Source: Opitutus sp. GAS368 | GTDB lineage: Bacteria; Verrucomicrobiota; Verrucomicrobiia; Opitutales; Opitutaceae | DNA: 64,000 nt | Assembly: GCA_945871085.1 (NCBI GenBank) | Contig: CAMBVX010000001.1 | Coordinates: forward strand, 7,347 to 71,346 | Direction: 5' to 3' | Position numbers and translations under genes: made by a program | Notes under the pieces: model-generated | The model's database searches: none | What the model was told of the DNA's origin: nothing | The model's input: only the letters and a program-made list of their open reading frames with translations | Shown: one piece after another, positions 54,027 through 64,000 of the stretch | How the letters are laid out: each line of letters starts with the position of its first letter | Position numbering within the stretch: position 1 is the first letter of the stretch

Positions 54027-55232
54027 ATGCACGCACCACCTCGTCACCTCGTTGCTCTCTTCGCCGTCTTCACGGGCTCGCTGCTCGCCGCCGATTCGTT
54101 CGGCGACGCCTTGGAGCAAGGCACGGTCTCGCTCAACGCCCGCCTCCGCTCCGAAGGTGTGCAACAGACCAGTCTCCGCGCCGCCGATGCGATCACGCTG
54201 CGCACGCGGCTCGGTTTCACCACCGCGCCTTGGCAAGGTCTGAAGGCCATGGTCGAGGCGGAGAACATCCTCGCGGGCAACGGCGACCGCTACAGTCAGG
54301 CCGGCCTGAATCCCGCCGCCACCGGCCGCGCCGTCGTCGCCGATCCCGAGACCAGCGAAATCAACCAAGTGTTGCTCGCCTACACGTCCGGCAAAACCAC
54401 CGCGACGCTCGGCCGCCAACGCCTCGTCTTGGACAACGCGCGCTTCATCGGCGACGTCGGCTGGCGGCAAAACATGCAGACCTTCGATGCCTTCGTCGTG
54501 CAGGACAAAACCCTCGACAAGACGACACTCACTTACGGCTACCTCGACCAGATCAACCGCGTCTTCGGCGACGATCACCCGCAGGGCAAATGGCCGTCCG
54601 ACTCCCACGTGCTCAATGCCAGCTACACCGGCTTCGCCGCCGGCACGTTCACCGGCTACGCCTACCTGCTCGATTTTGCGAAAACCGCCGCCGCGAATTC
54701 CTGCGCGACCTACGGCGCCAGTTTCGCCGGCACGCAGCCGCTCAGTGCCGACGTAAAATTCGCCTACCGCGCCGAGCTCGCCACGCAGTCCGACTACGGC
54801 TCCAGCGCGCTGAATTATGCGACGACCTACGCCGCCGTTTCCGCCGGTCTCGTGGTGCAACCCGGCACGCTCACGCTCGGCTATGAACAACTCGGCTCCG
54901 ACAATAAAGTTGGTTTCAAAACTCCCCTCGCCACGCTCCACGCTTTTAACGGCTGGGCCGATCTCTTCCTCGCCACGCCCGCCGCCGGCTTGCAAGAAAC
55001 CTCGGTGCGCGCGACCGCCAACCTCCCCGAGAATATCGCGCTCACCGCCTCGTATAGCCGTTTCGAGACCGACGTCGGCCGCGCGAAACTCGGAAAAGAA
55101 TTCGATGTGCAGCTCTCCCGAAAATTTGGCAAATCCGTTACCGGCCTCCTCAAATTCGCCAACTTCCGCCGCGACAGTCTGACGTTGCCCAACGTCCAGA
55201 AAATCTGGATGCAGGTCGAGTTCGTTTACTAG
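54027..55232 (+). CDS. Outer-membrane porin (alginate-export-like barrel family)
   Basis: Signal peptide HLVALFAVFTGSLLAADS. RFIGDVGWRQNMQTFDAF block as I recall it from Alginate_exp-type porins. C-terminal ...IWMQVEFVY (aromatic terminus). Confidence 0.7.
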   Translation: MHAPPRHLVALFAVFTGSLLAADSFGDALEQGTVSLNARLRSEGVQQTSLRAADAITLRTRLGFTTAPWQGLKAMVEAENILAGNGDRYSQAGLNPAATGRAVVADPETSEINQVLLAYTSGKTTATLGRQRLVLDNARFIGDVGWRQNMQTFDAFVVQDKTLDKTTLTYGYLDQINRVFGDDHPQGKWPSDSHVLNASYTGFAAGTFTGYAYLLDFAKTAAANSCATYGASFAGTQPLSADVKFAYRAELATQSDYGSSALNYATTYAAVSAGLVVQPGTLTLGYEQLGSDNKVGFKTPLATLHAFNGWADLFLATPAAGLQETSVRATANLPENIALTASYSRFETDVGRAKLGKEFDVQLSRKFGKSVTGLLKFANFRRDSLTLPNVQKIWMQVEFVY

Positions 55233-55245
55233 CCCGGTCTTGATG

Positions 55246-55665
55246 TTTTGTCATCGCGAGAGCTGAACCAAGGCGCGGCGCCTTGGGTGCCCGGGGCAAT
55301 GAACTTTGTTTGTCATGGCGAGCTCGGAGCAAGCGAGCTTGCGGGGTGGTGGCAGTGAACCGGACAAGGTTTGTCATTGCGAAGGAGGCTTGCCGACTGT
55401 GGCAATCCATCTGGAAACGCACCGTGGATTGCCGCAGTCGCTGAGGCTCCTTCGCAATGACAAACAGCGGCTGTTTCCTAGAAGAAGCGCAGCGACGTGG
55501 CCATCCATCTGGAATTTCAGCTGGATTGCCGCGCCCGCCAAGCCGGGCTCGCAATGACAAACTGTATGTGTTCATTCGCAGGAGCAGCCCTCCGCGCGGC
55601 GACGAAGCAATCCAGCTGGATCGCCACGCCGCGCGCCTTGCGCCACGCGAGGACGATCATTTCGA
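55246..55665 (+). repeat. Cluster of GTCATTGCGA...TCGCAATGAC-type long hairpin repeats (R2 units a-b-c-d-e)
   Basis: For example 55369-55462: TTGTCATTGCGAAGGAGgcttgccgactgtGGCAATCCAtctggaaacgcaccgTGGATTGCCgcagtcgctgaggCTCCTTCGCAATGACAA. Units a, d and e recur in the same order at 57688-57927. Confidence 0.88.
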
Positions 55666-55757
55666 ACCCACGCCCTGCCACTCGGCGCGGCGCGCTAGTG
55701 CTCGTTGCCCCGCGTCGTTCATGATGCTCACCTCGTCGTGCAATGTTAGGTCCCTCG

Positions 55758-55824
55758 CAAAAACGCCGAAAACCACTTGTCACTTATTAAGTGACATCCC
55801 CTCTGAAAATGGCCGGATTTTGTC
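55758..55824 (-). repeat. About 69-nt palindrome-bearing repeat (copy 2, inverted relative to 20254-20322)
   Basis: caaaaacgccgaaaaccacttgtcacttattaagtgacatcccctctgaaaatggccggattttgtc. Palindrome TGTCACTTA-T-TAAGTGACA at 55778-55796. Confidence 0.8.
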
Positions 55825-55902
55825 CGGCGACTTAACAGGGTAATACTCGATCACTGAGCCGGTCGACTGACCGCCGCCCCCGGTGAATTTCCCTCCCGAA
55901 CG

Positions 55903-55916
55903 TTGACGCACGTCAA
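55903..55916. promoter_or_regulatory. FNR/Dnr/NnrR-type box TTGAC-GCAC-GTCAA with matching -10
   Basis: Centre at 55909.5. TATAAA at 55939-55944 starts 29.5 nt from the centre (class II, -41.5 geometry). The shared downstream string CTTGCGCTAYAA also occurs after the 58063 box. The NirK-like ATG is at 55985. Confidence 0.75.
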
Positions 55917-55984
55917 AGCGCCGTGGGTCACCTTGCGCTATAAATCGGCACAGTTCCGTCGCCAATTTTCCAACGTTTATTCCT

Positions 55985-57607
55985 ATGCATGCTACCTCCC
56001 TTAAACTCGGTTCACCTCGTCTGGTCGCCGGCTTCGGTCTTGCCGCGGCCCTGTTCATCGTCCCCGTCACTTTGGCCTGCGAAGCCTGTAACAGTGTCAT
56101 GGCAAAGCGCCTGCTCGGCGGCAACAGCCCCTCGGTGCACGCGGCCGAACTCACCGCCTTGGTGAAAAATTCCGGCTGGAACGGTGCCGCCAATCTCCTG
56201 GCCTTTGCGGGCGGCGCCCCGTTTCAGAGTTCCGCCGGTGGCGGTGGTGGCGCCGCCGCTCCCGCGGCGACTCCGCCCGTTGCACCCCCGCACCCGTTTC
56301 AGGCCGTCATCGATCGGGATAAAAAACTACCCATGTGGGAGACCAGCTACGTCGTCCCCGGCACCAAGCCCGACAAGAAATTTCGCCTCGAGATGAACGA
56401 AGGCGATGTCTTCATCGGCAACGGCGTCGTCTACAGCGGATTCACCGTCAACGGCACGATTCCCGGCCCGACGCTCATCGCCGAGGAGGGCGACGTGATT
56501 GAGCTGACGGCCGTCAACAACGGCGGCGTGCCGCATGGCATGTCCATCCACGCCGCCTACACGCAGACCTCGAAATACCTCGGCAAGATCGCCCCCGGGG
56601 CGACGGCGTCCATGCTCTTTCGCGTCAACCACCCCGGCGTCTACATGTATCACTGCGCCCCGGGCGGACACGCGATCCCGATGCACACGCTGCTGGGCCA
56701 GTATGGCATGTTCGTCGTCAAGCCCAAGACGGTGAAGTTCAAGGCCGAGCAGATCATCGGCCACAAACCCGACGTCGAACTCTACATCGTGCAGCATGAA
56801 CTTTACGCCAGCGGCAAGGAAGCCGTCGAAGGCCACGCGGCCTACGTCCTGTTCAACGGCAAACTATTCCGCTACGTCGAGAGCCCGATCAAAGTGCGCC
56901 CGGGTGATTTTGTGCGGATCAACTTCCTCAACGTCGGCCCGAACCTCATCTCCACGTTCCATCTCGTCGGCATCATTTGGGATTACGCCTACTGGCAGGG
57001 CACGCCGACGCCGGAGAACACCTTCACCGGCGGCCAGAGCGTCACCGCCGGCCCGACGGACTCCTGGGTCGTCGATTTCCGCGTGCCACCGGACGAGGGC
57101 AACTACCTGATCGTGACGCATGCCTTCGGCTCGACGACGCGCGGTGCGATCGGCGTGCTCGCCGCTGCGAAGGACGCCGTGCGCACGCCCACAGTGTTGG
57201 CCGACGGTCCGGCCTACTCCGAGGCCGCGATGAAGGAACACACGGCCAAAGCCGCGCGCGTCATCTCGCCGTTCAAGGCGACCAAGGATGAACTCGAGAA
57301 TCCCTCCACGCTCCCGGCCGGGCAGAAGAAACTCCGCATTCAAATCATCGGAAATTCCTACTGGCCGAAAGTGGCCTCGGTGCCCCCCGGCACCACGGTC
57401 GAGTGGGTGAACGAAGATATTTTCACCTTCGCGAGCGGTGAGTTTGCGGGCGTCCACGACGCCGTGACCAGCGAAGCCCCGGAACATTTCGCCTCCAAGA
57501 TGCTCGGCCACGCCGAAAAATGGAGCACGGTTCTGACGAAGAAGGGCGACTACAAATTCTACTGCACACCGCATCCGTATATGGAAGGCATCATCCGCGT
57601 CGAGTGA
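55985..57607 (+). CDS. Copper-containing nitrite reductase (NirK)-like two-domain multicopper protein with C-terminal cupredoxin fusion
   Basis: PHGMSIHAA (T1/T2 His pair spacing as H95/H100), YMYHCAPGGHAIPMH (His-Cys T2/T1 pair), and a second-domain STFHLVGIIWDY (H306-like). The last about 100 aa form a separate blue-copper domain, GTTVEWVNED...GVHDAV...YKFYCTPHPYMEGIIRVE (Cys-x2-His-x2-Met). The N-terminus has a membrane/signal segment and a Gly/Ala/Pro linker. Confidence 0.75.
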   Translation: MHATSLKLGSPRLVAGFGLAAALFIVPVTLACEACNSVMAKRLLGGNSPSVHAAELTALVKNSGWNGAANLLAFAGGAPFQSSAGGGGGAAAPAATPPVAPPHPFQAVIDRDKKLPMWETSYVVPGTKPDKKFRLEMNEGDVFIGNGVVYSGFTVNGTIPGPTLIAEEGDVIELTAVNNGGVPHGMSIHAAYTQTSKYLGKIAPGATASMLFRVNHPGVYMYHCAPGGHAIPMHTLLGQYGMFVVKPKTVKFKAEQIIGHKPDVELYIVQHELYASGKEAVEGHAAYVLFNGKLFRYVESPIKVRPGDFVRINFLNVGPNLISTFHLVGIIWDYAYWQGTPTPENTFTGGQSVTAGPTDSWVVDFRVPPDEGNYLIVTHAFGSTTRGAIGVLAAAKDAVRTPTVLADGPAYSEAAMKEHTAKAARVISPFKATKDELENPSTLPAGQKKLRIQIIGNSYWPKVASVPPGTTVEWVNEDIFTFASGEFAGVHDAVTSEAPEHFASKMLGHAEKWSTVLTKKGDYKFYCTPHPYMEGIIRVE

Positions 57608-57687
57608 CGCTCCGCGCCGCCTGCACGGGCGACCCCTCGGGCGGGTCGGTCGGACCTTCAGCATTAACCTGCCGCCGTGGCCTCTGG

Positions 57688-57927
57688 TTGGTCATGGCGA
57701 GAGCTCGGGCCAACGCCGGGCCGTTGGGTGAAAGGGGCGATGAACGTTGTTGGTCATGGCGAGGAACGCAGCGACGTGGCCATCCATCTGGAAATTCAGC
57801 TGGATTGCCGCGCCCCCAAAGCCGGGCTCGCAATGACAAACCCTATGAGTGCATTGGCAGGGAGGCTCTGCCGACCGCGGCAAGCCAGCTGGATTGCTTC
57901 GGCGCTGCGCTTCTCGCCATGACAACC
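57688..57927 (+). repeat. Second R2 hairpin-repeat cluster (units a'-d'-e'), direct repeat of parts of 55246-55665
   Basis: ttggtcatggcgagagctcgggccaacgccgggccgttgggtg..gatgaacgttgt parallels 55246-55308. gcgaggaacgcagcgacgtggccatccatctggaaattcagctggattgccgcgcccccaaagccgggctcgcaatgacaaac is about 95% identical to 55480-55562. Confidence 0.88.
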
Positions 57928-58062
57928 AACGATGCTTCGCTGGCGTAAGTTGACGCTTACGGGCTGGCCGACTCGCTCCCTCTTGCGCCCGGACCACGAG
58001 TCCGGGCGCCGTTGTGTCCGGACGTCGGCGCGGGAACGAAGGCGGGTTTCCGCACGCAAACC

Positions 58063-58076
58063 TTGACCTCGGTCAA
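58063..58076. promoter_or_regulatory. FNR/Dnr/NnrR-type box TTGAC-CTCG-GTCAA (within 18-nt palindrome CCTTGACCTCGGTCAAGG)
   Basis: Centre at 58069.5. The -10-like TACAAC at 58099-58104 sits inside CTTTGCGCTACAA, the same string as at the NirK promoter. The predicted TSS is at about 58111, which coincides with the first ATG of the next gene. Confidence 0.7.
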
Positions 58077-58110
58077 GGCGGCGCGCGCGCCTTTGCGCTA
58101 CAACTGCGCC

Positions 58111-59565
58111 ATGCCACCCCCCACGGCCACCTTCCCCGCCAGCGCCCGATTCGCCCCGCGCCTCGCGGGTGCGGCGCAGTCGGATGCGTCCGTCTCCGCC
58201 TCGGCCCTCCAACCGGCCCGCGGCTGGTTTCTTTTCGCCATTGGCAGCCTCGTGCTCGCCGGCCTGCTTTCACTCCTGCTCGTCGTCGGCCGGCTGCCGT
58301 TTCTCGGCTGGCTGTTCACCGATCCGCTCTTTTTCAAACGCGCCCTCGTGGTCCACGTCGATCTCGCGATCGTCGTCTGGTTTCAAGCCGGCACGCTCGC
58401 GTTTCTCGCTCTGGCCGTCGGCCCGCGTCTCCACCGCGGTGTGACGGCGGCCGCGCTCGCGCTCGCGGCGGCGGGCATCGTCGGCTTGCTCGTCGGCGCG
58501 GTGATGCCGGGTGCGCAACCCGTCCTCTCCAACTACGTCCCGGTGATCGACCACCCGATTTTTTTCGGCGGACTCATCGCCTGGTTTGCCGGCTCCGGTT
58601 TATTCTTCGCCCTCGCGCTCGCCACACCCTCGCGCACCGACGCGAAGGCGCTCTCCGCCGATGTCGTGATCGCCCTGCGCGCCTCGGCCGTCGCGAATCT
58701 CCTGGCGGTGGTCACCTTCCTGGGAGCGTGGCAAACGACGCCGGATTCCGTGCCGGGCGTATTTTATGAGCTCCTGTTCTGGGGCGGCGGTCATGTCCTG
58801 CAAACGGCCAACGTCGCCGCGATGCTCGCCCTGTGGTTGCACCTGTTGCACCGCTGGACGGGTAGGGTGGTGCTGACCCCGGCCATCGCAACCGCCCTGC
58901 TCGCCGCGCTCGTCGCGCCGCAGGTCGTCATGCCGCCGCTGGCCTTCGGGGGCACGACCGCCACGAGCTATTTCTCCATGGCCACTCACCTCATGCGTTG
59001 GACGATTTTCCCCGTGGTGCTGGTCGTGCTCGGCGCCGCGACCCTCCACGTGTGGCGGGCGCGGAGGACGGTGAATTGGCGCGACTATCGTTTCCTCGGT
59101 CTCGCCGGCAGCGCGTCGCTGACGCTCCTCGGATTTATTCTCGGGGCGCTGATCCGCAGTTCGAGCACGCTCGTGCCGGGCCACTACCACTGTGCCATCG
59201 GCGCGGTGACGATCGCGTTGATGGCGGCGGCCTATGATTTCTGCGCCGCTGTCGCGCCGCACGGTGCCGCGGCCGAAACACCGCGTCGCGCGCGTCTGCA
59301 GCTCCTGCTCTTCGGTGGTGGCCAGGCGGTCTTCGGCCTCGGATTCGCGCTGGCCGGCACCTACGGGCTCGGGCGCAAACAATACGGTGCCGAGCAGCAC
59401 GTACGTTCGCTCGGCGAATACTTCGGCCTCAGCGTCATGGGCCTCGGCGGCTTCGTGGCCGTGGCCGGCGGGATATTTTTCCTCGCGGTGATGCTGCGCC
59501 GGATCGGCGCGTGGCATCGTGATTTTTCTCCCGTCACCTCATCCCTCCATGAACAACGAACCTGA
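58111..59565 (+). CDS. Haem-copper-oxidase subunit-I-like polytopic membrane protein lacking the helix-VII CuB His-His pair
   Basis: Aligns by eye with the subunit I at 60277: LLFWGGGHVLQTANVAAMLALWLHLLH vs LIWWGLGHQSQQVNVCAMVSVWYLISH; LVPGHYHCAIGAVTIALMAAAY vs RIPGHFHVTVVGGTTLAFMALAY; VVHVDLAIVVW vs TFHGINMLILW. Where the partner has SAHHLLVDP this protein has LVAPQVVMPP. The start at 58111 is uncertain. Confidence 0.7.
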   Translation: MPPPTATFPASARFAPRLAGAAQSDASVSASALQPARGWFLFAIGSLVLAGLLSLLLVVGRLPFLGWLFTDPLFFKRALVVHVDLAIVVWFQAGTLAFLALAVGPRLHRGVTAAALALAAAGIVGLLVGAVMPGAQPVLSNYVPVIDHPIFFGGLIAWFAGSGLFFALALATPSRTDAKALSADVVIALRASAVANLLAVVTFLGAWQTTPDSVPGVFYELLFWGGGHVLQTANVAAMLALWLHLLHRWTGRVVLTPAIATALLAALVAPQVVMPPLAFGGTTATSYFSMATHLMRWTIFPVVLVVLGAATLHVWRARRTVNWRDYRFLGLAGSASLTLLGFILGALIRSSSTLVPGHYHCAIGAVTIALMAAAYDFCAAVAPHGAAAETPRRARLQLLLFGGGQAVFGLGFALAGTYGLGRKQYGAEQHVRSLGEYFGLSVMGLGGFVAVAGGIFFLAVMLRRIGAWHRDFSPVTSSLHEQRT

Positions 59566-59698
59566 AAAACATCCGTGGCAGAAAGTGCTCGATAACCCGT
59601 GGCTGCTCCTCGTCCTCGGCGTCCTGATACCGATTTTGTCCTACACCGTGTGGGGCTGGGTCGAACTCGTCCTCACCAAACCCGCGTTGCTGCCCTGA
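59549..59698 (+). CDS. Small single-TM protein, candidate ba3-type subunit IIa analogue (not in supplied ORF track)
   Basis: ATG at 59549, TGA at 59696-59698. MNNEPEKHPWQKVLDNPWLLLVLGVLIPILSYTVWGWVELVLTKPALLP (49 aa, one hydrophobic helix). Lies immediately 5' of a one-TM CuA subunit II and overlaps the preceding gene by 17 nt. Confidence 0.5.
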   Translation: MNNEPEKHPWQKVLDNPWLLLVLGVLIPILSYTVWGWVELVLTKPALLP

Positions 59699-59713
59699 AC
59701 CCCCTCTTTTCCC

Positions 59714-60265
59714 ATGAGCTTAAGTCCTCTCACCAAACCGTGGTTTCACGCGCCGGCGGGCCACGAAAAAATCTGGCTCGGCTGCGCGGTCCTCTGGTGC
59801 TTCGTGATGTCGCTGATGATGCCGTACTGGCATTTTCGCGGTAAACAAAACAGCACCGGCGAAGCCTACACCGTTAAACCGGCCGACTTCCTCGCTCGCA
59901 CCGAAAAGTTCGTCGCGTCGAACAAGGTCGGCACCTATAAAAATACCAACCACAACGCGCTCATGCCCGAGTTGCCCCTCGTCGAGCCGCCGGCCGGCGG
60001 CGACGCCTACTTGATCGGCCGCATGTGGCACTGGTATCCGGCGCTGCGCCTGCGCATGGGCGAGACCTATCGCCTGCACCTCTCGGCGCTCGACTTGCAG
60101 CACGGCTTCTCGCTGCAACCGATCAATATGAATTTCCAGGTGCTGCCCGGCTACGATCACGTGCTCACCTTCACTCCGACTTCGAAGGGCGAGTTCACCA
60201 TCGTCTGCAATGAATTTTGCGGCGCCGGCCATCACGCCATGTCCGGAAAAATCTTTGTCGAATAA
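59714..60265 (+). CDS. Haem-copper oxidase subunit II (single TM + CuA cupredoxin domain)
   Basis: One TM (IWLGCAVLWCFVMSLMMPYW). CuA ligand pattern LQHGFS ... CNEFCGAGHHAMSGKIFV (H, C-x-E-x-C-x3-H-x2-M). Confidence 0.88.
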   Translation: MSLSPLTKPWFHAPAGHEKIWLGCAVLWCFVMSLMMPYWHFRGKQNSTGEAYTVKPADFLARTEKFVASNKVGTYKNTNHNALMPELPLVEPPAGGDAYLIGRMWHWYPALRLRMGETYRLHLSALDLQHGFSLQPINMNFQVLPGYDHVLTFTPTSKGEFTIVCNEFCGAGHHAMSGKIFVE

Positions 60266-60276
60266 CCGCCCCCGCC

Positions 60277-61980
60277 ATGTCCACTCCCTCTCATTCACTC
60301 TCCGCTCCGGGCACGCCCGGTCGCGTGTGCGGCACGACCGGCCTCGGTGTCTGCCTCGACGCCCAACGCTTCATCAAGCTCAATGCCGTCGCCGGCATTG
60401 TCTTCCTCCTCCTCGGTGGCATCGCCGCGCTCCTGCTCGCGCTCACGCGTTGGCAGACCGTGCACCTGCTCCCCGTCGACTGGTTTTATCGGATCCTGAC
60501 GTTCCACGGCATCAACATGCTGATCCTGTGGATACTCTTCTTCGAGATCGCCATCCTCTACTTCGCCTGCACGACGCCGCTCAATTCCCGGCTCTTCTCG
60601 CGCAAGATTGCCTGGGTCTCGTTCGGGATGATGCTCACCGGCGCCATCATGGTGGATTACATCATCATCGCCGGACAAGCCGACGTGATGATGACTTCCT
60701 ACCTGCCGCTGCTGGCGCATCCGCTCTTCTACCTCGGGATCATTCTCGTCGCCGTCGGCACATTGGTGGGCGTGTTTAATTTCTTCGCCACCCTCTACGT
60801 CGCGAAACGGGACCAGACCTACACCGGCTCCGTGCCGATCGTCACGTTCGGTGCCACCGCCGCCGCCATCATCGCCGTCGTCACTTTGTTGCACGGCGCC
60901 GTCGTGATGATCCCGACGTTTACTTATTCGATGGGTTGGACGCCGCAGCCCGACCCCGCGTGGTATCGCCTCATCTGGTGGGGCCTCGGTCACCAATCGC
61001 AGCAGGTCAACGTCTGCGCGATGGTCTCCGTCTGGTATCTGATTTCGCACATCGTCGTCGGTGCCCGCCCGATCAACGAGGCCGTCTGTCGCACCGCCTT
61101 TGTGCTGTACATTCTTTTTATCAATCTCGCCTCGGCCCATCATCTCCTCGTCGATCCCGCAGTCGGTGCCACGTGGAAGATCTGGAACACGTCCTACGCC
61201 ATGTATCTCGCGGTGCTCGCCTCGATGGTACACGGCTTCACCGTCCCCGCCGGCGTCGAAATTGCCATGCGTGAAAAGGGCTACACGAGCGGGATTTTCG
61301 GTTGGGTCACGGCGCTGCCGTGGAAGAACCCCGCGTTCTCCGGCACCGCGTTGTCGGTCGTCATCTTCGGGTTCCTCGGCGGCATCACCGGCGTCACGCT
61401 CGGCACGCAGCAGATCAATATCATCGCGCACAACACCCTGCGCATCCCCGGTCACTTCCACGTGACCGTCGTCGGCGGCACGACCCTGGCGTTCATGGCG
61501 CTCGCCTACTACGTGATCCCGCTGATCTTCCAACGCGACTTCATCTTCCGCGGGGTCGCCCGCCTGCAACCGTGGTTGTTCGGACTCGGGATCGTGATGC
61601 TTTCCTTCGGCATGTCGTTCGCCGGTTCGATGGGTGTTTCCCGCCGTAGTTGGGATATTGATGCGCAAGGTGTCTATGGTCCCGCGGCCCACCTCTGGCT
61701 CGGCGTGCTCGGCCTCGGTGGCGTCCTCGCCTTCGTCGGTCTGCTCGTCTTCGCGCTGCTCTGTGTCGGCACACTCTTCTTCGGGCCGAAAATTGAACAC
61801 CGCGCCATGGCCGACTGGGGCACACCGCCCGCCCTCGCCGGTTCGGAATCCGGCTCACTGGCCAATGACCACTACGCCACCAAGGGCACGATGGTCCTCG
61901 TCCTCGTTTTCCTCGCCTGCTTCGCGGTCTATTATTTCGCGAACTGGAAGGCTCTCGCCGACGTCTGGCCCGTGCGCTGA
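60277..61980 (+). CDS. B-family-like haem-copper oxidase subunit I lacking the His-Tyr cross-link tyrosine (NO-reductase-like variant)
   Basis: ATG at 60277 (MSTPSHSL). Ligand set present: helix II LTFHGINM, CuB WWGLGH, SAHHLLVDP, helix X IPGHFHVTV. It is collinear with Thermus ba3 as I recall it (FWWTGHPIVYFW / HHQFADP / GWIRALPWDNPAF vs GWVTALPWKNPAF / PGHFHLQV). The His+4 position is Gln (GHQSQQV), not Tyr. Confidence 0.85.
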   Translation: MSTPSHSLSAPGTPGRVCGTTGLGVCLDAQRFIKLNAVAGIVFLLLGGIAALLLALTRWQTVHLLPVDWFYRILTFHGINMLILWILFFEIAILYFACTTPLNSRLFSRKIAWVSFGMMLTGAIMVDYIIIAGQADVMMTSYLPLLAHPLFYLGIILVAVGTLVGVFNFFATLYVAKRDQTYTGSVPIVTFGATAAAIIAVVTLLHGAVVMIPTFTYSMGWTPQPDPAWYRLIWWGLGHQSQQVNVCAMVSVWYLISHIVVGARPINEAVCRTAFVLYILFINLASAHHLLVDPAVGATWKIWNTSYAMYLAVLASMVHGFTVPAGVEIAMREKGYTSGIFGWVTALPWKNPAFSGTALSVVIFGFLGGITGVTLGTQQINIIAHNTLRIPGHFHVTVVGGTTLAFMALAYYVIPLIFQRDFIFRGVARLQPWLFGLGIVMLSFGMSFAGSMGVSRRSWDIDAQGVYGPAAHLWLGVLGLGGVLAFVGLLVFALLCVGTLFFGPKIEHRAMADWGTPPALAGSESGSLANDHYATKGTMVLVLVFLACFAVYYFANWKALADVWPVR

Positions 61981-62001
61981 GTGCCGCCTGCCCCCTCCGC
62001 C

Positions 62002-63024
62002 ATGTCCGTCCCCGTCACCGTGGTTTTTTCGCCCGCGAGTTCCGCCGTTCCTACGCCCATTCCGGGCGGCTGGGGCGGCACGGCACCCGCGCGATTCCTC
62101 ACGGGGCCGGGGCTGCTGGTGTTTCTGCTGACCGCCCTCGCGGGCTATGAAGGATTTTTGCTGCTCACGATTTTCGGTCCAACCGAGGGCGGTTGGCTCG
62201 GAGACTTTGTGCGCGATTTTCAACTCTGGTGTTATCGGGGCGATCCGCGCACCGGCGGGATTTCGTGGCTCGCCGTCTCCGTAATGATGGGTGAGCCGAT
62301 TTTTGTCGTGGGCGTCGCCGCGCTGCTGTGGCGGAAAGTATTCCTTCGGCTGAGTTCGCCCGCGCTCTGGCTGACGCACGCGCGGGCCGCGGGCACCGCG
62401 CTGCTCCTGACGGTGATCGCGGCCGGCGGGCTCCTCTACTATGCGCGCACCGACGCCGTGAGCGCCCAGATCTTGCCGCCCTTCCCCGGGGAGCGCATCC
62501 GCGTCCACCTTGCGCTGCCCGACACCGCACTCATCGACCAGCAGGCCGCGCCGTTCCGTTTCGCCGACCTGCGCGGCCGCGTCGTCCTCGTCACCGGGGT
62601 CTATGCCGCCTGCACCACCGCGTGTCCGGAAATATTCATCGAGTTGAAAAAAATCCTCGGCGAACTTCCCGCCACCGAGCGCGCCGACCTCAGCGTCGTG
62701 GCGCTCTCGCTCAATCCGGAATATGAGACCACCGATCTGATGAACGCCCTCGCCGAGGGCCGCGGCCTCACGCATCCTGAATTCCGTTACGTCAACGCCC
62801 CCGCCCCCGCCGCCATGCACGATGCACTCACGCGGCTCCAGTTCTCCGCCACGCGCAATCCGCAGACCGGCGTGATCGACCACGCCAATCTTTTCCTGCT
62901 CGTCGATCGCTCGAACCACATCGCTTATCGCTTCACCCTCGATGCGCGCCACCGCGCGTGGTTGCGCACCGCCTTGCGGTCCCTCCTCAGCGAAACTCAT
63001 GCCGTCGCCCCACGAGCACCCTGA
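62002..63024 (+). CDS. SCO1/SenC copper chaperone domain fused to an about 170-aa polytopic N-terminal membrane domain
   Basis: C-terminal thioredoxin-fold FRFADLRGRVVLVTGVYAACTTACPEIF...VALSLNPEYET...VIDHANLFLLVD (CxxxC + His). The N-terminal half has about 4 TM helices. The start at ATG 62002 or GTG 61981 is unresolved. Confidence 0.8.
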   Translation: MSVPVTVVFSPASSAVPTPIPGGWGGTAPARFLTGPGLLVFLLTALAGYEGFLLLTIFGPTEGGWLGDFVRDFQLWCYRGDPRTGGISWLAVSVMMGEPIFVVGVAALLWRKVFLRLSSPALWLTHARAAGTALLLTVIAAGGLLYYARTDAVSAQILPPFPGERIRVHLALPDTALIDQQAAPFRFADLRGRVVLVTGVYAACTTACPEIFIELKKILGELPATERADLSVVALSLNPEYETTDLMNALAEGRGLTHPEFRYVNAPAPAAMHDALTRLQFSATRNPQTGVIDHANLFLLVDRSNHIAYRFTLDARHRAWLRTALRSLLSETHAVAPRAP

Positions 63025-64000
63025 CGTTGATTGCGAGTTGCTCGCCGACGCGCTGGGGCCGACGGCGAATCCTCCCGGTTCGCAGCCGCCGGTGCCGCCG
63101 GTGCGCGCCGCGCGTATCTTCGCCGCCGGCGACCGGCTCGCCACGCGGCTGGACACCTGGTTGGAGCGCTGGCTCCCGCGCGAACTGAATCCACTCGCGC
63201 ACCTCGGCGCGGCGGCCAACGCCATGCTCGTCCTCGCCACGCTCTCCGGCGTGCTGATGCTCATCTGGTATTCGGCGAGTGTGCAGTCGGCGTGGCATTC
63301 CCTCGCCGATCTGGCGCCGCGCTCCTTCGGCGGGCTCGTGCGCAGTGTCCATCGCTACTCGTCCGACCTCGTCATGCTGCTCGTGCTCGCTCATGCGCTG
63401 CGCACGCTCCTCGCGCGCAAGTTCGCCGATGCCCGCTGGCTCGCGTGGGTCAGCGGCATCGCGCTGCTGGGGCTCGTGTGGTTCATCGGCTGGAGCGGCT
63501 ACTGGCTCGTGTGGGACGTGCGCGCGCAACTCCTCGCCCTCGACAGCATTCGCGCGCTCGATGTATTGCCGATCTTTGGGGAACCGATGCTGCGCCTCTT
63601 CACCTCCGATGCCACGGTGCCGTCGCTCCTGTTTTTTGTCGTTTTTTTTCTCCACATGTCGCTCCCGCTCGGGATCGCGGGCGGGCTCGCCCTGCACCTC
63701 GCACGCCAGAGCCGCACGCAACTGCTGCCGAACTGGCGGCTCTCGGTCTGGCTGGCGGGCGCGGTCGTCGTGGCCGCGCTCGTATTCCCAGCGACCAACG
63801 CCGCCGTCGCGCAGATGGCGGTCAAACCCGCCCGGTTCACGATGGACTGGTGGTTTCTCTGGCCGCTCGCAATCACCGCGCGCCTCTCCGGTGGTGGCAT
63901 CTGGCTCACGACGGTGCTCGCCACCGCCGGCTTGATGACCGTTCCGTGGTGGCTCGCGCGCCGTCGGCCGCGCCCGACGTTTCAGGCGACCGTCAACGTC
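62999..64000 (+). CDS. Di-haem cytochrome b-like membrane protein (3' end beyond window; not in supplied ORF track)
   Basis: Frame 2 is open from ATG 62999 to the window end: MPSPHEHPD...LVRSVHRYSSDLVMLLVLAHALR...FFVVFFLHMSLPLGIAGGLALHLAR. Two His pairs, each spaced 14 residues on predicted helices B and D, as in cytochrome b/b6. Overlaps the SenC gene by 26 nt. Confidence 0.7.
   Translation, partial: MPSPHEHPDVDCELLADALGPTANPPGSQPPVPPVRAARIFAAGDRLATRLDTWLERWLPRELNPLAHLGAAANAMLVLATLSGVLMLIWYSASVQSAWHSLADLAPRSFGGLVRSVHRYSSDLVMLLVLAHALRTLLARKFADARWLAWVSGIALLGLVWFIGWSGYWLVWDVRAQLLALDSIRALDVLPIFGEPMLRLFTSDATVPSLLFFVVFFLHMSLPLGIAGGLALHLARQSRTQLLPNWRLSVWLAGAVVVAALVFPATNAAVAQMAVKPARFTMDWWFLWPLAITARLSGGGIWLTTVLATAGLMTVPWWLARRRPRPTFQATVNV

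What the first reader, a model, noticed from the sequence alone, without database searches (positions are those of the whole stretch)
60277..61980. Subunit I keeps all six metal-ligand histidines but replaces the cross-linked Tyr with Gln (GHQSQQVNV)
- Thermus ba3 reference: the CuB His is followed by the cross-linked Tyr at +4 (GHPIVY).
- This protein: the stretch reads GHQSQQV, and the paralog at 58111 reads GHVLQTA. Both share Gln at +3 and Asn-Val at +6/+7, which suggests a family-specific polar active-site signature.
- Interpretation: loss of the Tyr is the classic hallmark separating NO-reducing from O2-reducing members of the superfamily. The subunit II retains a full CuA site, which cNOR/qNOR lack.
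Basis: partly seen in the sequence, partly recalled or inferred. Interest (0 to 1): 0.75.

Follow-up and report, generated by a model that had tools for sequence, protein, structure and literature searches.

The report
eNOR-type nitric oxide reductase operon

Summary
ORF 60277-61980 (567 aa) is a heme-copper oxidoreductase subunit I. It is closest to B-family ba3 oxidases. It keeps all six metal-ligand histidines (H77, H239, H288, H289, H393, H395). Gln243 sits exactly where Thermus ba3 has the cross-linked Tyr237.

This Tyr-to-Gln change, with a CuA subunit II, defines the eNOR family (Hemp & Gennis 2008; Murali et al. 2024). The Rhodothermus marinus eNOR reduces NO and not O2.

- **Conservation:** G-H-x-[SA]-Q-Q-[VI]-N is invariant in 69 of 69 homologs from about 15 phyla.
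- **Phylogeny:** the window protein nests in that clade (100/100 NJ bootstrap), with Rhodothermales MAG homologs at 63% identity and a Thermus plasmid eNOR of the published His/Lys variant at 47%.
- **Operon:** CuA subunit II, subunit I, SCO1, then cytochrome b, as in the described Ferrigenium eNOR operon. A three-domain NirK lies upstream.
- **Replacement Tyr:** none at the C-family position (I282). Three invariant tyrosines (Y278, Y307, Y310) could not be measured in 3D.

The only less-charted item is the upstream paralog, a conserved HCO-fold protein that lacks the His-His pair.

The parts
60277..61980 (+). eNOR subunit I (567 aa): heme-copper oxidoreductase catalytic subunit
   Evidence: Pfam COX1 at 209.6 bits. 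Best solved relatives are B-family ba3 oxidases, E about 1e-42. AF2 model has pTM 0.87, and its best Foldseek match is ba3 with TM 0.77. It sits in the QQ clade with 100/100 NJ bootstrap.
60988..61014 (+). Active-site motif GHQSQQVNV. H239 (60991-60993) is the first CuB/FeB ligand. Q243 (61003-61005) replaces the cross-linked Tyr.
   Evidence: Alignment to ba3 GHPIVY. H239, Q242, Q243 and N245 are invariant in 69 of 69 homologs.
61138..61143 (+). H288-H289, the other two ligands of the non-heme metal (ba3 H282/H283)
   Evidence: invariant.
60505..60507 (+). H77, axial ligand of the low-spin heme (ba3 H72)
   Evidence: invariant.
61453..61461 (+). H393-F-H395: ligand of the high-spin heme and second ligand of the low-spin heme (ba3 H384/H386)
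   Evidence: invariant.
59714..60265 (+). eNOR subunit II (183 aa): one N-terminal membrane helix plus a cupredoxin domain with a full CuA site (H130, C165, E167, C169, H173, M176). E18 is the equivalent of the ba3 K-path entrance Glu15(II).
   Evidence: Pfam COX2 and TIGR02866 hits. All seven residues are invariant in 73 of 73 homologs.
61981..63024 (+). SCO1/SenC-like protein with an N-terminal membrane domain (CTTAC motif). Probable copper chaperone for CuA assembly.
   Evidence: Pfam SCO1-SenC, E 2e-10. It holds the same position in most of the 80 related loci and in the Ferrigenium eNOR operon.
63032..64000 (+). Cytochrome b-type membrane protein, cut by the end of the window. Probable quinol-side electron input module.
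   Evidence: Pfam Cytochrome_B, E 3e-20. The 83%-identical gene in L001 is 700 aa: cytochrome b plus two 4Fe-4S motifs. Cytochrome b/Fe-S fusions are listed in the Ferrigenium eNOR operon.
58111..59565 (+). Divergent HCO-fold paralog (484 aa), GHVLQTANV at 58789-58815. Heme ligands are kept and the His-His pair is lost. Function unknown.
   Evidence: Pfam COX1 at 34.8 bits, exactly at the cut-off. hhalign to the subunit I profile gives 99.2% probability. AF2 model has pTM 0.83 with 12 helices, and its Foldseek matches are HCO subunit I chains with TM 0.6-0.69. Only H82, H228, H358 and H360 are invariant among 39 family members. It lies next to subunit II in about 43 of the 80 related loci.
55985..57607 (+). 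Three-domain copper nitrite reductase (NirK with a C-terminal cupredoxin domain). Probable source of the NO substrate.
   Evidence: phmmer E 2.9e-128 to PDB 6hbe, a copper-containing nitrite reductase. It is 48% identical to the multicopper protein next to the Thermus plasmid eNOR.

Best explanation
Genes 59714-60265 and 60277-61980 encode subunits II and I of an eNOR-family nitric oxide reductase of an Opitutaceae (Verrucomicrobiota) bacterium.

**Shown from sequence:**
- Subunit I has a B-family heme-copper fold.
- Both heme sites and the three-His non-heme metal site are intact.
- The Tyr that oxygen reductases need as fourth electron donor is replaced by Gln243, inside an invariant polar motif (Q242, Q243, N245).
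- Subunit II has a complete CuA centre.

**Inferred mechanism:**
- Electron path: electrons from a periplasmic carrier enter at CuA. They pass to the low-spin heme (H77/H395) and then to the high-spin heme (H393) and the non-heme metal (H239, H288, H289).
- Chemistry: at the binuclear centre, 2 NO + 2 e- + 2 H+ give N2O + H2O. This two-electron reaction needs no tyrosyl radical.
- Role of Gln243: it occupies the same H+4 position as the Glu listed as the active-site residue of cNOR and qNOR. It probably ligates or hydrogen-bonds the metal or the bound intermediate.
- Proton path: protons probably come from the cytoplasm through a modified K-path: E18(II), T322, Y254, H319, S316, then the active site. 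That would make the step electrogenic.
- Substrate and accessory genes: NO is supplied by the NirK encoded 2.7 kb upstream. SCO1 would assemble CuA, and the cytochrome b/Fe-S protein probably links the enzyme to the quinone pool.
For: - **Closest solved relatives:** B-family oxidases, with all six His aligned and Y237 replaced by Q243.
- **Family-wide conservation:** the QQxN motif and the His ligands are invariant in 69 of 69 homologs from Verrucomicrobiota, Myxococcota, Rhodothermales, Balneolaceae, Gemmatimonadota, Planctomycetota, Nitrospirota and others. At least 586 stretches in the GTDB species-genome collection encode a relative.
- **Phylogeny:** the clade with Gln, including a haloarchaeal member, has 99/100 NJ bootstrap. 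The window protein nests in its bacterial part with 100/100.
- **Published definition:** Gln at this site is the diagnostic of eNOR (PMC8756737). eNOR is B-family derived and has CuA, and the R. marinus enzyme reduces NO but not O2 (PMC11214002).
- **Link to a named organism:** a Thermus thermophilus plasmid homolog (47% identity) has GHGAQQVN plus GHFK. This is the His/Lys low-spin heme variant that Murali et al. ascribe to some eNORs.
- **Subunit II:** the CuA ligands and E18 are invariant in 73 of 73 homologs.
- **K-path:** the ba3 residues are taken from PMC3141039. Four of seven are kept and one becomes His.
- **Operon order:** subunit II, subunit I, SCO1, cytochrome b/Fe-S, as in the Ferrigenium straubiae eNOR operon.
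- **Nitrite reductase next door:** a NirK lies upstream here and next to the Thermus eNOR.
- **Nitrogen-oxide context in a close relative:** the 95%-identical locus L001 has a Crp/FNR regulator, NrfA and a nitrate/nitrite-sensing chemoreceptor nearby.
- **Physiology in the same phylum:** a cultivated Verrucomicrobiota isolate with NirK, eNorAB and NrfAH is described as having a truncated nitrite-to-N2O pathway (PMC13274419).
Against: - No activity data exist for this protein or for any close relative. The nearest biochemically tested enzyme, from R. marinus, could not be fetched for direct comparison. The link runs through Rhodothermales MAG homologs (63% identity) and through shared diagnostic residues.
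- The identity of the non-heme metal (Fe or Cu) and of the hemes is unknown.
- No heme A or heme O synthase gene lies in the visible part of the cluster, although many eNOR operons have one.
- Three invariant tyrosines (Y278, Y307, Y310) lie on helices VII and VIII. Their distance to H239 could not be measured because model coordinates are not exposed.
- K-path residue Y244 of ba3 is Val here and T312 is His, so proton delivery is inferred, not demonstrated.
- The NJ tree is a simple distance tree.
Confidence: 0.85

Rival explanations
1. It is still an oxygen reductase. A tyrosine from another helix (Y278 on helix VII, or Y307/Y310 on helix VIII) takes over the redox role of the lost Tyr, as happened in the C family.
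For: Y278, Y307 and Y310 are invariant in 69 of 69 homologs. Y307 and Y310 sit near the top of helix VIII, which runs alongside the binuclear centre in known oxidases (my knowledge of A- and B-family structures). The closest archaeal relatives (GHxxQY) keep the Tyr, so the ancestor was probably an oxidase.
Against: - The position used by the C family, six residues before the His-His pair, is I282 (Ile in 67 of 69, Leu in 2). The six-residue spacing is from my knowledge of cbb3 structures.
- Y278 is ten residues, about 15 Å, below H288. It aligns with ba3 F272, at the depth of the lost K-path Tyr244. This suggests a proton-path role, which is an inference.
- Murali et al. report that models and alignments of these families show no migrated tyrosine, and that the R. 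marinus eNOR does not reduce O2 with a range of donors.
Confidence: 0.04
2. It handles nitrogen oxides but not as a respiratory NO reductase. It might serve mainly to detoxify NO made by NirK or NrfA side reactions, or it might catalyse different chemistry such as NO dismutation or N2O reduction, as proposed for other tyrosine-less HCO families.
For: The close relative L001 has NrfA (ammonifying nitrite reductase) rather than NirK near the cluster. No nosZ or nar genes were seen among the window ORFs I scanned. Other Tyr-less HCO families have been proposed as NO dismutase or N2O reductase.
Against: Those proposed families are related to qNOR and cNOR, not to the B family. The only member of this family tested makes N2O from NO. 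The conserved K-path and the quinol-side cytochrome b module fit a respiratory, energy-conserving role.
Confidence: 0.08
3. It is a decaying or non-catalytic copy, and the Tyr-to-Gln change is a loss-of-function mutation.
For: None beyond the missing Tyr.
Against: The ORF is intact and the same length as its homologs. All metal ligands are kept. The Gln and its neighbours are invariant across about 15 phyla, and the operon partners are conserved.
Confidence: 0.02

Closest known systems
eNOR family of heme-copper nitric oxide reductases (Hemp & Gennis 2008; Murali et al. 2024, R. marinus enzyme; Ferrigenium straubiae operon; Verruconatronum alginivorum eNorAB)
   Same: - Gln at the cross-link Tyr position, with three His for the non-heme metal and both heme ligand sets kept.
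- B-family ancestry and a CuA subunit II.
- K-path-like conserved residues.
- SCO1 and cytochrome b/Fe-S accessory genes.
- A nitrite reductase nearby.
   Different: - No heme O or heme A synthase gene in the visible cluster.
- An extra HCO-fold paralog without the His-His pair sits upstream of subunit II. It is present in about half of the 80 related loci and absent from the Rhodothermales loci.
- Both low-spin heme ligands are His, not the His/Lys variant seen in Thermus.
B-family oxygen reductases (Thermus thermophilus cytochrome ba3, PDB 1EHK/1XME; PDB 7DEG)
   Same: Best sequence and fold match (E about 1e-42, TM 0.77). The same six His and the same type of CuA subunit II. K-path residues E15(II), T315, Y248 and S309 are kept as E18(II), T322, Y254 and S316.
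   Different: Tyr237 becomes Gln243, Tyr244 becomes Val250 and Thr312 becomes His319. An invariant QQxN motif, an NTSY motif on helix VIII and Glu90 on helix II are all absent from ba3.
cNOR and qNOR (NorBC, NorZ)
   Same: No cross-linked Tyr, and the same overall two-electron NO chemistry is expected. The residue at H+4 is a polar oxygen donor: Glu there, Gln here.
   Different: [quoted passage not shown] They have a cytochrome c subunit or a fused domain instead of CuA, carry Glu at H+4, and lack a conserved cytoplasmic proton channel.
bNOR (qCuANOR of Bacillus azotoformans) and sNOR
   Same: B-family-derived NO reductases with CuA-type subunits and K-path-like channels.
   Different: [quoted passage not shown] They are separate clades in the published tree.

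Membership tests
eNOR | Subunit I is a heme-copper oxidoreductase with both heme ligand sets and the three-His non-heme metal site | tested here: met
   Pfam COX1 at 209.6 bits. H77, H239, H288, H289, H393 and H395 align to ba3 H72, H233, H282, H283, H384 and H386 and are invariant in the family.
eNOR | Gln at the position of the cross-linked Tyr (H+4); the diagnostic used in PMC8756737 | tested here: met
   Q243 aligns to ba3 Y237. It is invariant in 69 of 69 homologs. The criterion is quoted.
eNOR | Falls in one clade with recognised eNOR sequences, derived from the B family | tested here: met
   The QQ clade has 99/100 NJ bootstrap and the window protein sits in its bacterial part with 100/100. 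The clade holds Rhodothermales MAG homologs at 63% identity. A Thermus plasmid protein with the published His/Lys eNOR variant shares the motif at 47% identity but was not placed in the tree. Caveats: the R. marinus sequence itself was not obtained, and the tree is distance-based only.
eNOR | CuA-containing subunit II | tested here: met
   H130, C165, E167, C169, H173 and M176 are present and invariant in 73 of 73 homologs.
eNOR | Conserved K-path-like proton channel resembling that of the B family | tested here: met
   E18(II), T322, Y254 and S316 are kept. T312 becomes an invariant His319. Y244 becomes Val. The ba3 path is taken from PMC3141039. Function was not tested.
eNOR | Typical operon partners (SCO1, cytochrome b/Fe-S proteins, heme O/A synthase) | tested here: inconclusive
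   SCO1 and cytochrome b are present in the published order. No heme O or heme A synthase lies within the window or within 10 kb in L001.
eNOR | Reduces NO to N2O and does not reduce O2 | not testable with these tools
   This needs enzymology. It is shown only for R. marinus eNOR.
eNOR | Modified heme a (heme As) in both heme sites | not testable with these tools
   Cofactor identity cannot be read from sequence (describes the R. marinus result).
B-family oxygen reductase | Cross-linked His-Tyr cofactor (Tyr at H+4 on helix VI) | tested here: not met
   Gln243 is at that position.
C-family-style oxygen reductase active site | Cross-link Tyr supplied from helix VII, six residues before the His-His pair | tested here: not met
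   That position is I282 (Ile in 67 of 69, Leu in 2). The spacing rule rests on my knowledge of cbb3 structures (P. stutzeri Y251, H257/H258).
cNOR/qNOR | Glu at H+4, a cytochrome c subunit or fused N-terminal domain, and no CuA | tested here: not met
   Gln at H+4 and a CuA subunit II. The best relatives are B family, not C family.
sNOR/bNOR | Asn as the active-site residue in place of Tyr (PMC8756737 Table A4) | tested here: not met
   Gln243, invariant.

The most novel reading that the evidence does not exclude
The upstream paralog (58111-59565) may belong to an undescribed branch of the heme-copper superfamily. It would be a 12-helix, two-heme protein that has lost the His-His pair, and with it the non-heme metal site. 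It is kept directly beside eNOR subunit II in Verrucomicrobiota, Myxococcota, Planctomycetota, Balneolaceae and others. It could be a functional partner of eNOR, for example a heme-only NO-binding, NO-buffering or sensing subunit, or a partner in a heterodimer that shares the CuA subunit.
Probability: 0.3. Interest if true: 0.55.

Novelty: new member of a known kind. Interest (0 to 1): 0.25.

Why it matters
[quoted passage not shown] Genome-based budgets of N2O production therefore miss them. Recognising this cluster as NirK plus eNOR marks this Opitutaceae lineage as a likely N2O producer under low oxygen.

**Energy conservation.** The enzyme may conserve energy through a cytoplasmic proton path, unlike cNOR.

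This adds one more lineage to a picture already drawn by Murali et al. 2024. It opens no new question.

**The open point.** The one unresolved item is the histidine-poor HCO paralog that travels with eNOR in many phyla.

Tried and rejected
- **R. marinus eNOR sequence.** I tried to fetch it for a direct comparison. The single genome-contig scan kept only the 80 best loci, which include Rhodothermales MAGs but not R. marinus. A protein search seeded with the Rhodothermales homolog listed no named Rhodothermus entry among its 120 best hits. The PNAS supplements are not held.
- **Three-dimensional test for a replacement Tyr.** The AF2 model was built, but coordinates are not exposed, so no distances could be measured. 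I fell back on sequence spacing and conservation.
- **Tree building.** The first script, using Biopython BLOSUM distances with bootstraps, timed out. The second failed on saturated distances. A capped Kimura-distance NJ tree worked.
- **Promoter and terminator scan of 55200-60300.** It gave nothing above shuffle expectation.
- **Literature on the paralog.** Searches found no description of the CuB-less paralog. This is not proof that none exists.
- **K-path residue searches.** Two text searches for ba3 K-path residue lists returned nothing, and PMC2752507 is not held. PMC3141039 supplied the path.
- **Rejected readings.** I rejected cbb3-type oxidase (the database label), cNOR/qNOR, sNOR/bNOR and pseudogene. 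Reasons are in the membership table.
Full report
**1. What is in the sequence**

Window positions 54-64 kb carry a row of plus-strand genes:

| Coordinates | Product |
|---|---|
| 54027-55232 | porin-like protein |
| 55985-57607 | copper nitrite reductase |
| 58111-59565 | very divergent heme-copper oxidoreductase (HCO) paralog |
| 59714-60265 | cupredoxin subunit II |
| 60277-61980 | HCO subunit I (the finding) |
| 61981-63024 | SCO1/SenC-like protein |
| 63032 to window end | cytochrome b gene |

The rest of the window, as far as I scanned it, encodes sensor kinases, a sulfatase, a TonB-type receptor and a CheB/CheR fusion. It looks unrelated.

The ATG at 60277 gives a 567-aa product, the same length as database proteins that are 97% identical. 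It starts 12 nt after the subunit II stop codon.

**2. Check of the observation**

GHQSQQVNV is residues 238-246, nt 60988-61014. phmmer against all PDB chains finds B-family oxidases first: 7deg and Thermus thermophilus ba3, E about 1e-42.

The printed alignment sets WWGLGHQSQQ against FWWTGHPIVY. The correspondences are:
- H239 is ba3 H233, and Q243 is ba3 Y237, the cross-linked tyrosine.
- H77 is H72.
- H288/H289 are H282/H283.
- H393/H395 are H384/H386.

Independent MAFFT alignments give the same register. Subunit II carries the whole CuA set: H130, C165, E167, C169, H173 and M176. The paralog reads GHVLQTANV, sharing Q at +3 and N-V at +6/+7. Every factual statement in the finding is therefore correct.

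**3. It is a family signature, not a chance substitution**

One scan of one genome per GTDB species found at least 586 stretches that encode a relative. In 69 full-length sequences from that scan, 54-95% identical and from about 15 phyla, these residues are invariant:
- H77, E90
- H239, Q242, Q243, N245
- Y254, Y278
- H288, H289
- N304, T305, S306, Y307, Y310
- H319, H393, H395

The exhaustive search of 50%-identity representatives shows the same G-H-x-x-Q-Q-[IV]-N in dozens of fragments. It also appears in a haloarchaeal protein (Natrarchaeobius, GHGTQQIN, 39% identity).

A neighbour-joining tree gave these results:
- The Gln-bearing clade, including the haloarchaeal sequence, is recovered in 99 of 100 bootstraps.
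- The window protein nests in the bacterial part of that clade in 100 of 100.
- B-family oxidases with Tyr lie outside it.

**4. Identification with a known family**

- The Chloroflexi study PMC8756737 identifies eNOR subunit I by a conserved Gln at the site where oxygen reductases have the cross-linking Tyr. Its table, modified from Hemp & Gennis 2008, lists Y for oxidases, E for cNOR and qNOR, N for sNOR and Q for eNOR.
- Murali et al. 2024 (PMC11214002) describe eNOR as a B-family-derived family with CuA subunits and a K-channel-like set of conserved residues.
- They purified the Rhodothermus marinus enzyme. It reduces NO (kcat 0.68 per s at 25 °C) and cannot reduce O2.
- They also state that models and alignments give no evidence of a migrated tyrosine.

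I could not obtain the R. marinus sequence. Three links tie the window protein to the published family:
- **Rhodothermales MAG homologs** are 63% identical and have the same gene order.
- **A Thermus thermophilus plasmid gene** (47% identity) has GHGAQQVN and SAHHLL but GHFK instead of GHFH. This is the His/Lys ligation of the low-spin heme that Murali et al. report for some eNORs.
- **Gene order:** subunit II, subunit I, SCO1, cytochrome b/Fe-S repeats the eNOR operon listed for Ferrigenium straubiae, which is eNOR II, eNOR I, heme o synthase, Sco1 and cytochrome b/Fe-S proteins.

eNOR has also already been reported in a cultivated member of the same phylum. Verruconatronum alginivorum has NirK, eNorAB and NrfAH.

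**5. Proton path and the tyrosine question**

The ba3 K-path is Glu15(II), Thr315, Tyr248, Thr312, Tyr244, Ser309, the heme a3 hydroxyl, then Tyr237 (PMC3141039). The equivalents here are:

| ba3 | Window protein | Conservation in the family |
|---|---|---|
| Glu15(II) | E18(II) | invariant, 73 of 73 |
| Thr315 | T322 | 68 of 69 |
| Tyr248 | Y254 | invariant |
| Thr312 | H319 | invariant |
| Tyr244 | V250 | 67 of 69 |
| Ser309 | S316 | 68 of 69 |
| Tyr237 | Q243 | invariant |

The path is therefore largely kept, with one Tyr lost and one Thr turned into His.

This is Y278, and it is invariant. It lies ten residues before the His-His pair and aligns with ba3 F272. The C family supplies its cross-link Tyr six residues before the pair (my knowledge of cbb3 structures). 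That position here is I282.

By helix geometry Y278 sits about 15 Å below the metal, at the depth of the lost Tyr244. I therefore read it as a likely replacement in the proton path rather than a cross-link partner. This is an inference.

Y307 and Y310 on helix VIII are also invariant and sit higher up. Their distance to H239 could not be measured because the AF2 model (pLDDT 83.8, pTM 0.87) is not available as coordinates. The model's best structural matches are ba3 and 7deg (TM 0.77). No eNOR structure was among the PDB matches.

**6. Likely mechanism**

- Electrons enter at CuA. They pass through the low-spin heme to the high-spin heme and the three-His metal.
- Two NO are reduced to N2O.
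- Gln243 stands where cNOR and qNOR have Glu as their active-site residue. With Q242 and N245 it makes a polar, redox-inert pocket.
- Protons probably come through the modified K-path, which would make the reaction electrogenic, as proposed for eNOR and reported for bNOR.
- The metal identity, the heme type, the electron donor and the proton path are all inferred.

**7. Context**

The upstream gene is a three-domain NirK. It matches PDB 6hbe at E 2.9e-128 and shares HG[ML]SIH, with Ser where classical NirK has the catalytic Asp. A 48%-identical gene sits next to the Thermus plasmid eNOR, so the NirK-eNOR pairing recurs.

In the 95%-identical Opitutaceae locus L001 the nirK is absent from this place. 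There, a Crp/FNR regulator, NrfA and a NIT-domain chemoreceptor lie nearby.

**8. The paralog**

- It is homologous to subunit I (hhalign 99.2% probability). It is predicted to have the 12-helix HCO fold (pTM 0.83; TM 0.6-0.69 to ba3, aa3 and cbb3).
- Among 39 family members only H82, H228, H358 and H360 are invariant. These are the heme ligands and the first CuB histidine. The His-His pair is replaced by a conserved T-x-L-M-R-W motif.
- It lies next to subunit II in about 43 of the 80 related loci, spanning several phyla. It is absent from the Rhodothermales, Bacteroidota and Gemmatimonadota loci.
- It forms its own clade (100/100).
- I found no paper that describes it.

It is not a second NO reductase of the same type. 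Its role is unknown.

**9. Verdict**

Public annotation mislabels it as a cbb3-type oxidase. Novelty is low: it is a new member of a known kind. The paralog is the only lead worth a follow-up.

Noticed in passing
window 58111-59565 (+): HCO-fold paralog whose family keeps the heme ligands and the first CuB histidine but has lost the His-His pair (conserved T-x-L-M-R-W instead). It lies next to eNOR subunit II in about 43 of 80 related loci from several phyla. I found no description of it in the literature.
   Followed up: partly
window 55985-57607 (+): Three-domain NirK with a C-terminal cupredoxin domain, E 2.9e-128 to PDB 6hbe. It has Ser in HGMSIH where classical NirK has the catalytic Asp, plus an extra N-terminal stretch of about 120 aa that includes a Gly/Ala/Pro-rich segment. 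It is absent from this position in the 95%-identical locus L001.
   Followed up: partly
window 55246-55650 and 57687-57931: Clusters of REP-like hairpin repeats (core TCGCAATGACAAAC) bracket the nirK gene on both sides. There are 9 matches with up to 2 mismatches, all in these two patches, against 0.42 expected by chance. They may mark a rearrangement or an insertion of nirK.
   Followed up: partly
window 63032-64000 (+), and L001 12734-14836: Cytochrome b gene cut by the window end. In L001 the orthologue is a 700-aa fusion of cytochrome b with two 4Fe-4S motifs, like the cytochrome b/Fe-S proteins of the Ferrigenium eNOR operon. It is a possible dedicated quinol-to-eNOR electron module.
   Followed up: partly
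window 54027-55232 (+): Porin-like outer-membrane protein with a weak Alginate_exp match, just below the Pfam cut-off. Orthologues at 61-78% identity lie near the eNOR cluster in six Opitutaceae-type loci (L001, L006, L007, L009, L011, L025).
   Followed up: no
proteins P0243 (Hodarchaeales), P0247 (Thermoproteota), P0246, P0263: The nearest relatives outside the eNOR clade (36-43% identity) read GHxxQY[IV]N. They keep the Tyr at +4 while already having the Gln at +3 and the Asn at +6. In the NJ tree they form a grade between the B family and eNOR, so they may be transitional oxygen reductases.
   Followed up: partly
L081 (Thermus thermophilus plasmid pHB5018d) 4858-9665: An eNOR-type subunit I with Lys in place of the second low-spin heme His (GHFK). 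It is preceded by an unannotated CuA subunit II ('hypothetical protein') and a three-domain NirK annotated only as 'multicopper oxidase domain-containing protein'.
   Followed up: partly
proteins P0289, P0304, P0316, P0380: Another HCO group, about 30% identical to the window protein. It has F-H-x-x-H-Y on helix VI and Y-H instead of H-H on helix VII. I could not assign it to a named family.
   Followed up: no
window 60544-60546 (E90 of subunit I): An invariant Glu on helix II, 13 residues after the heme ligand H77. ba3 has Ala at that position. Its role is unknown; it could belong to a second polar pathway.
   Followed up: no
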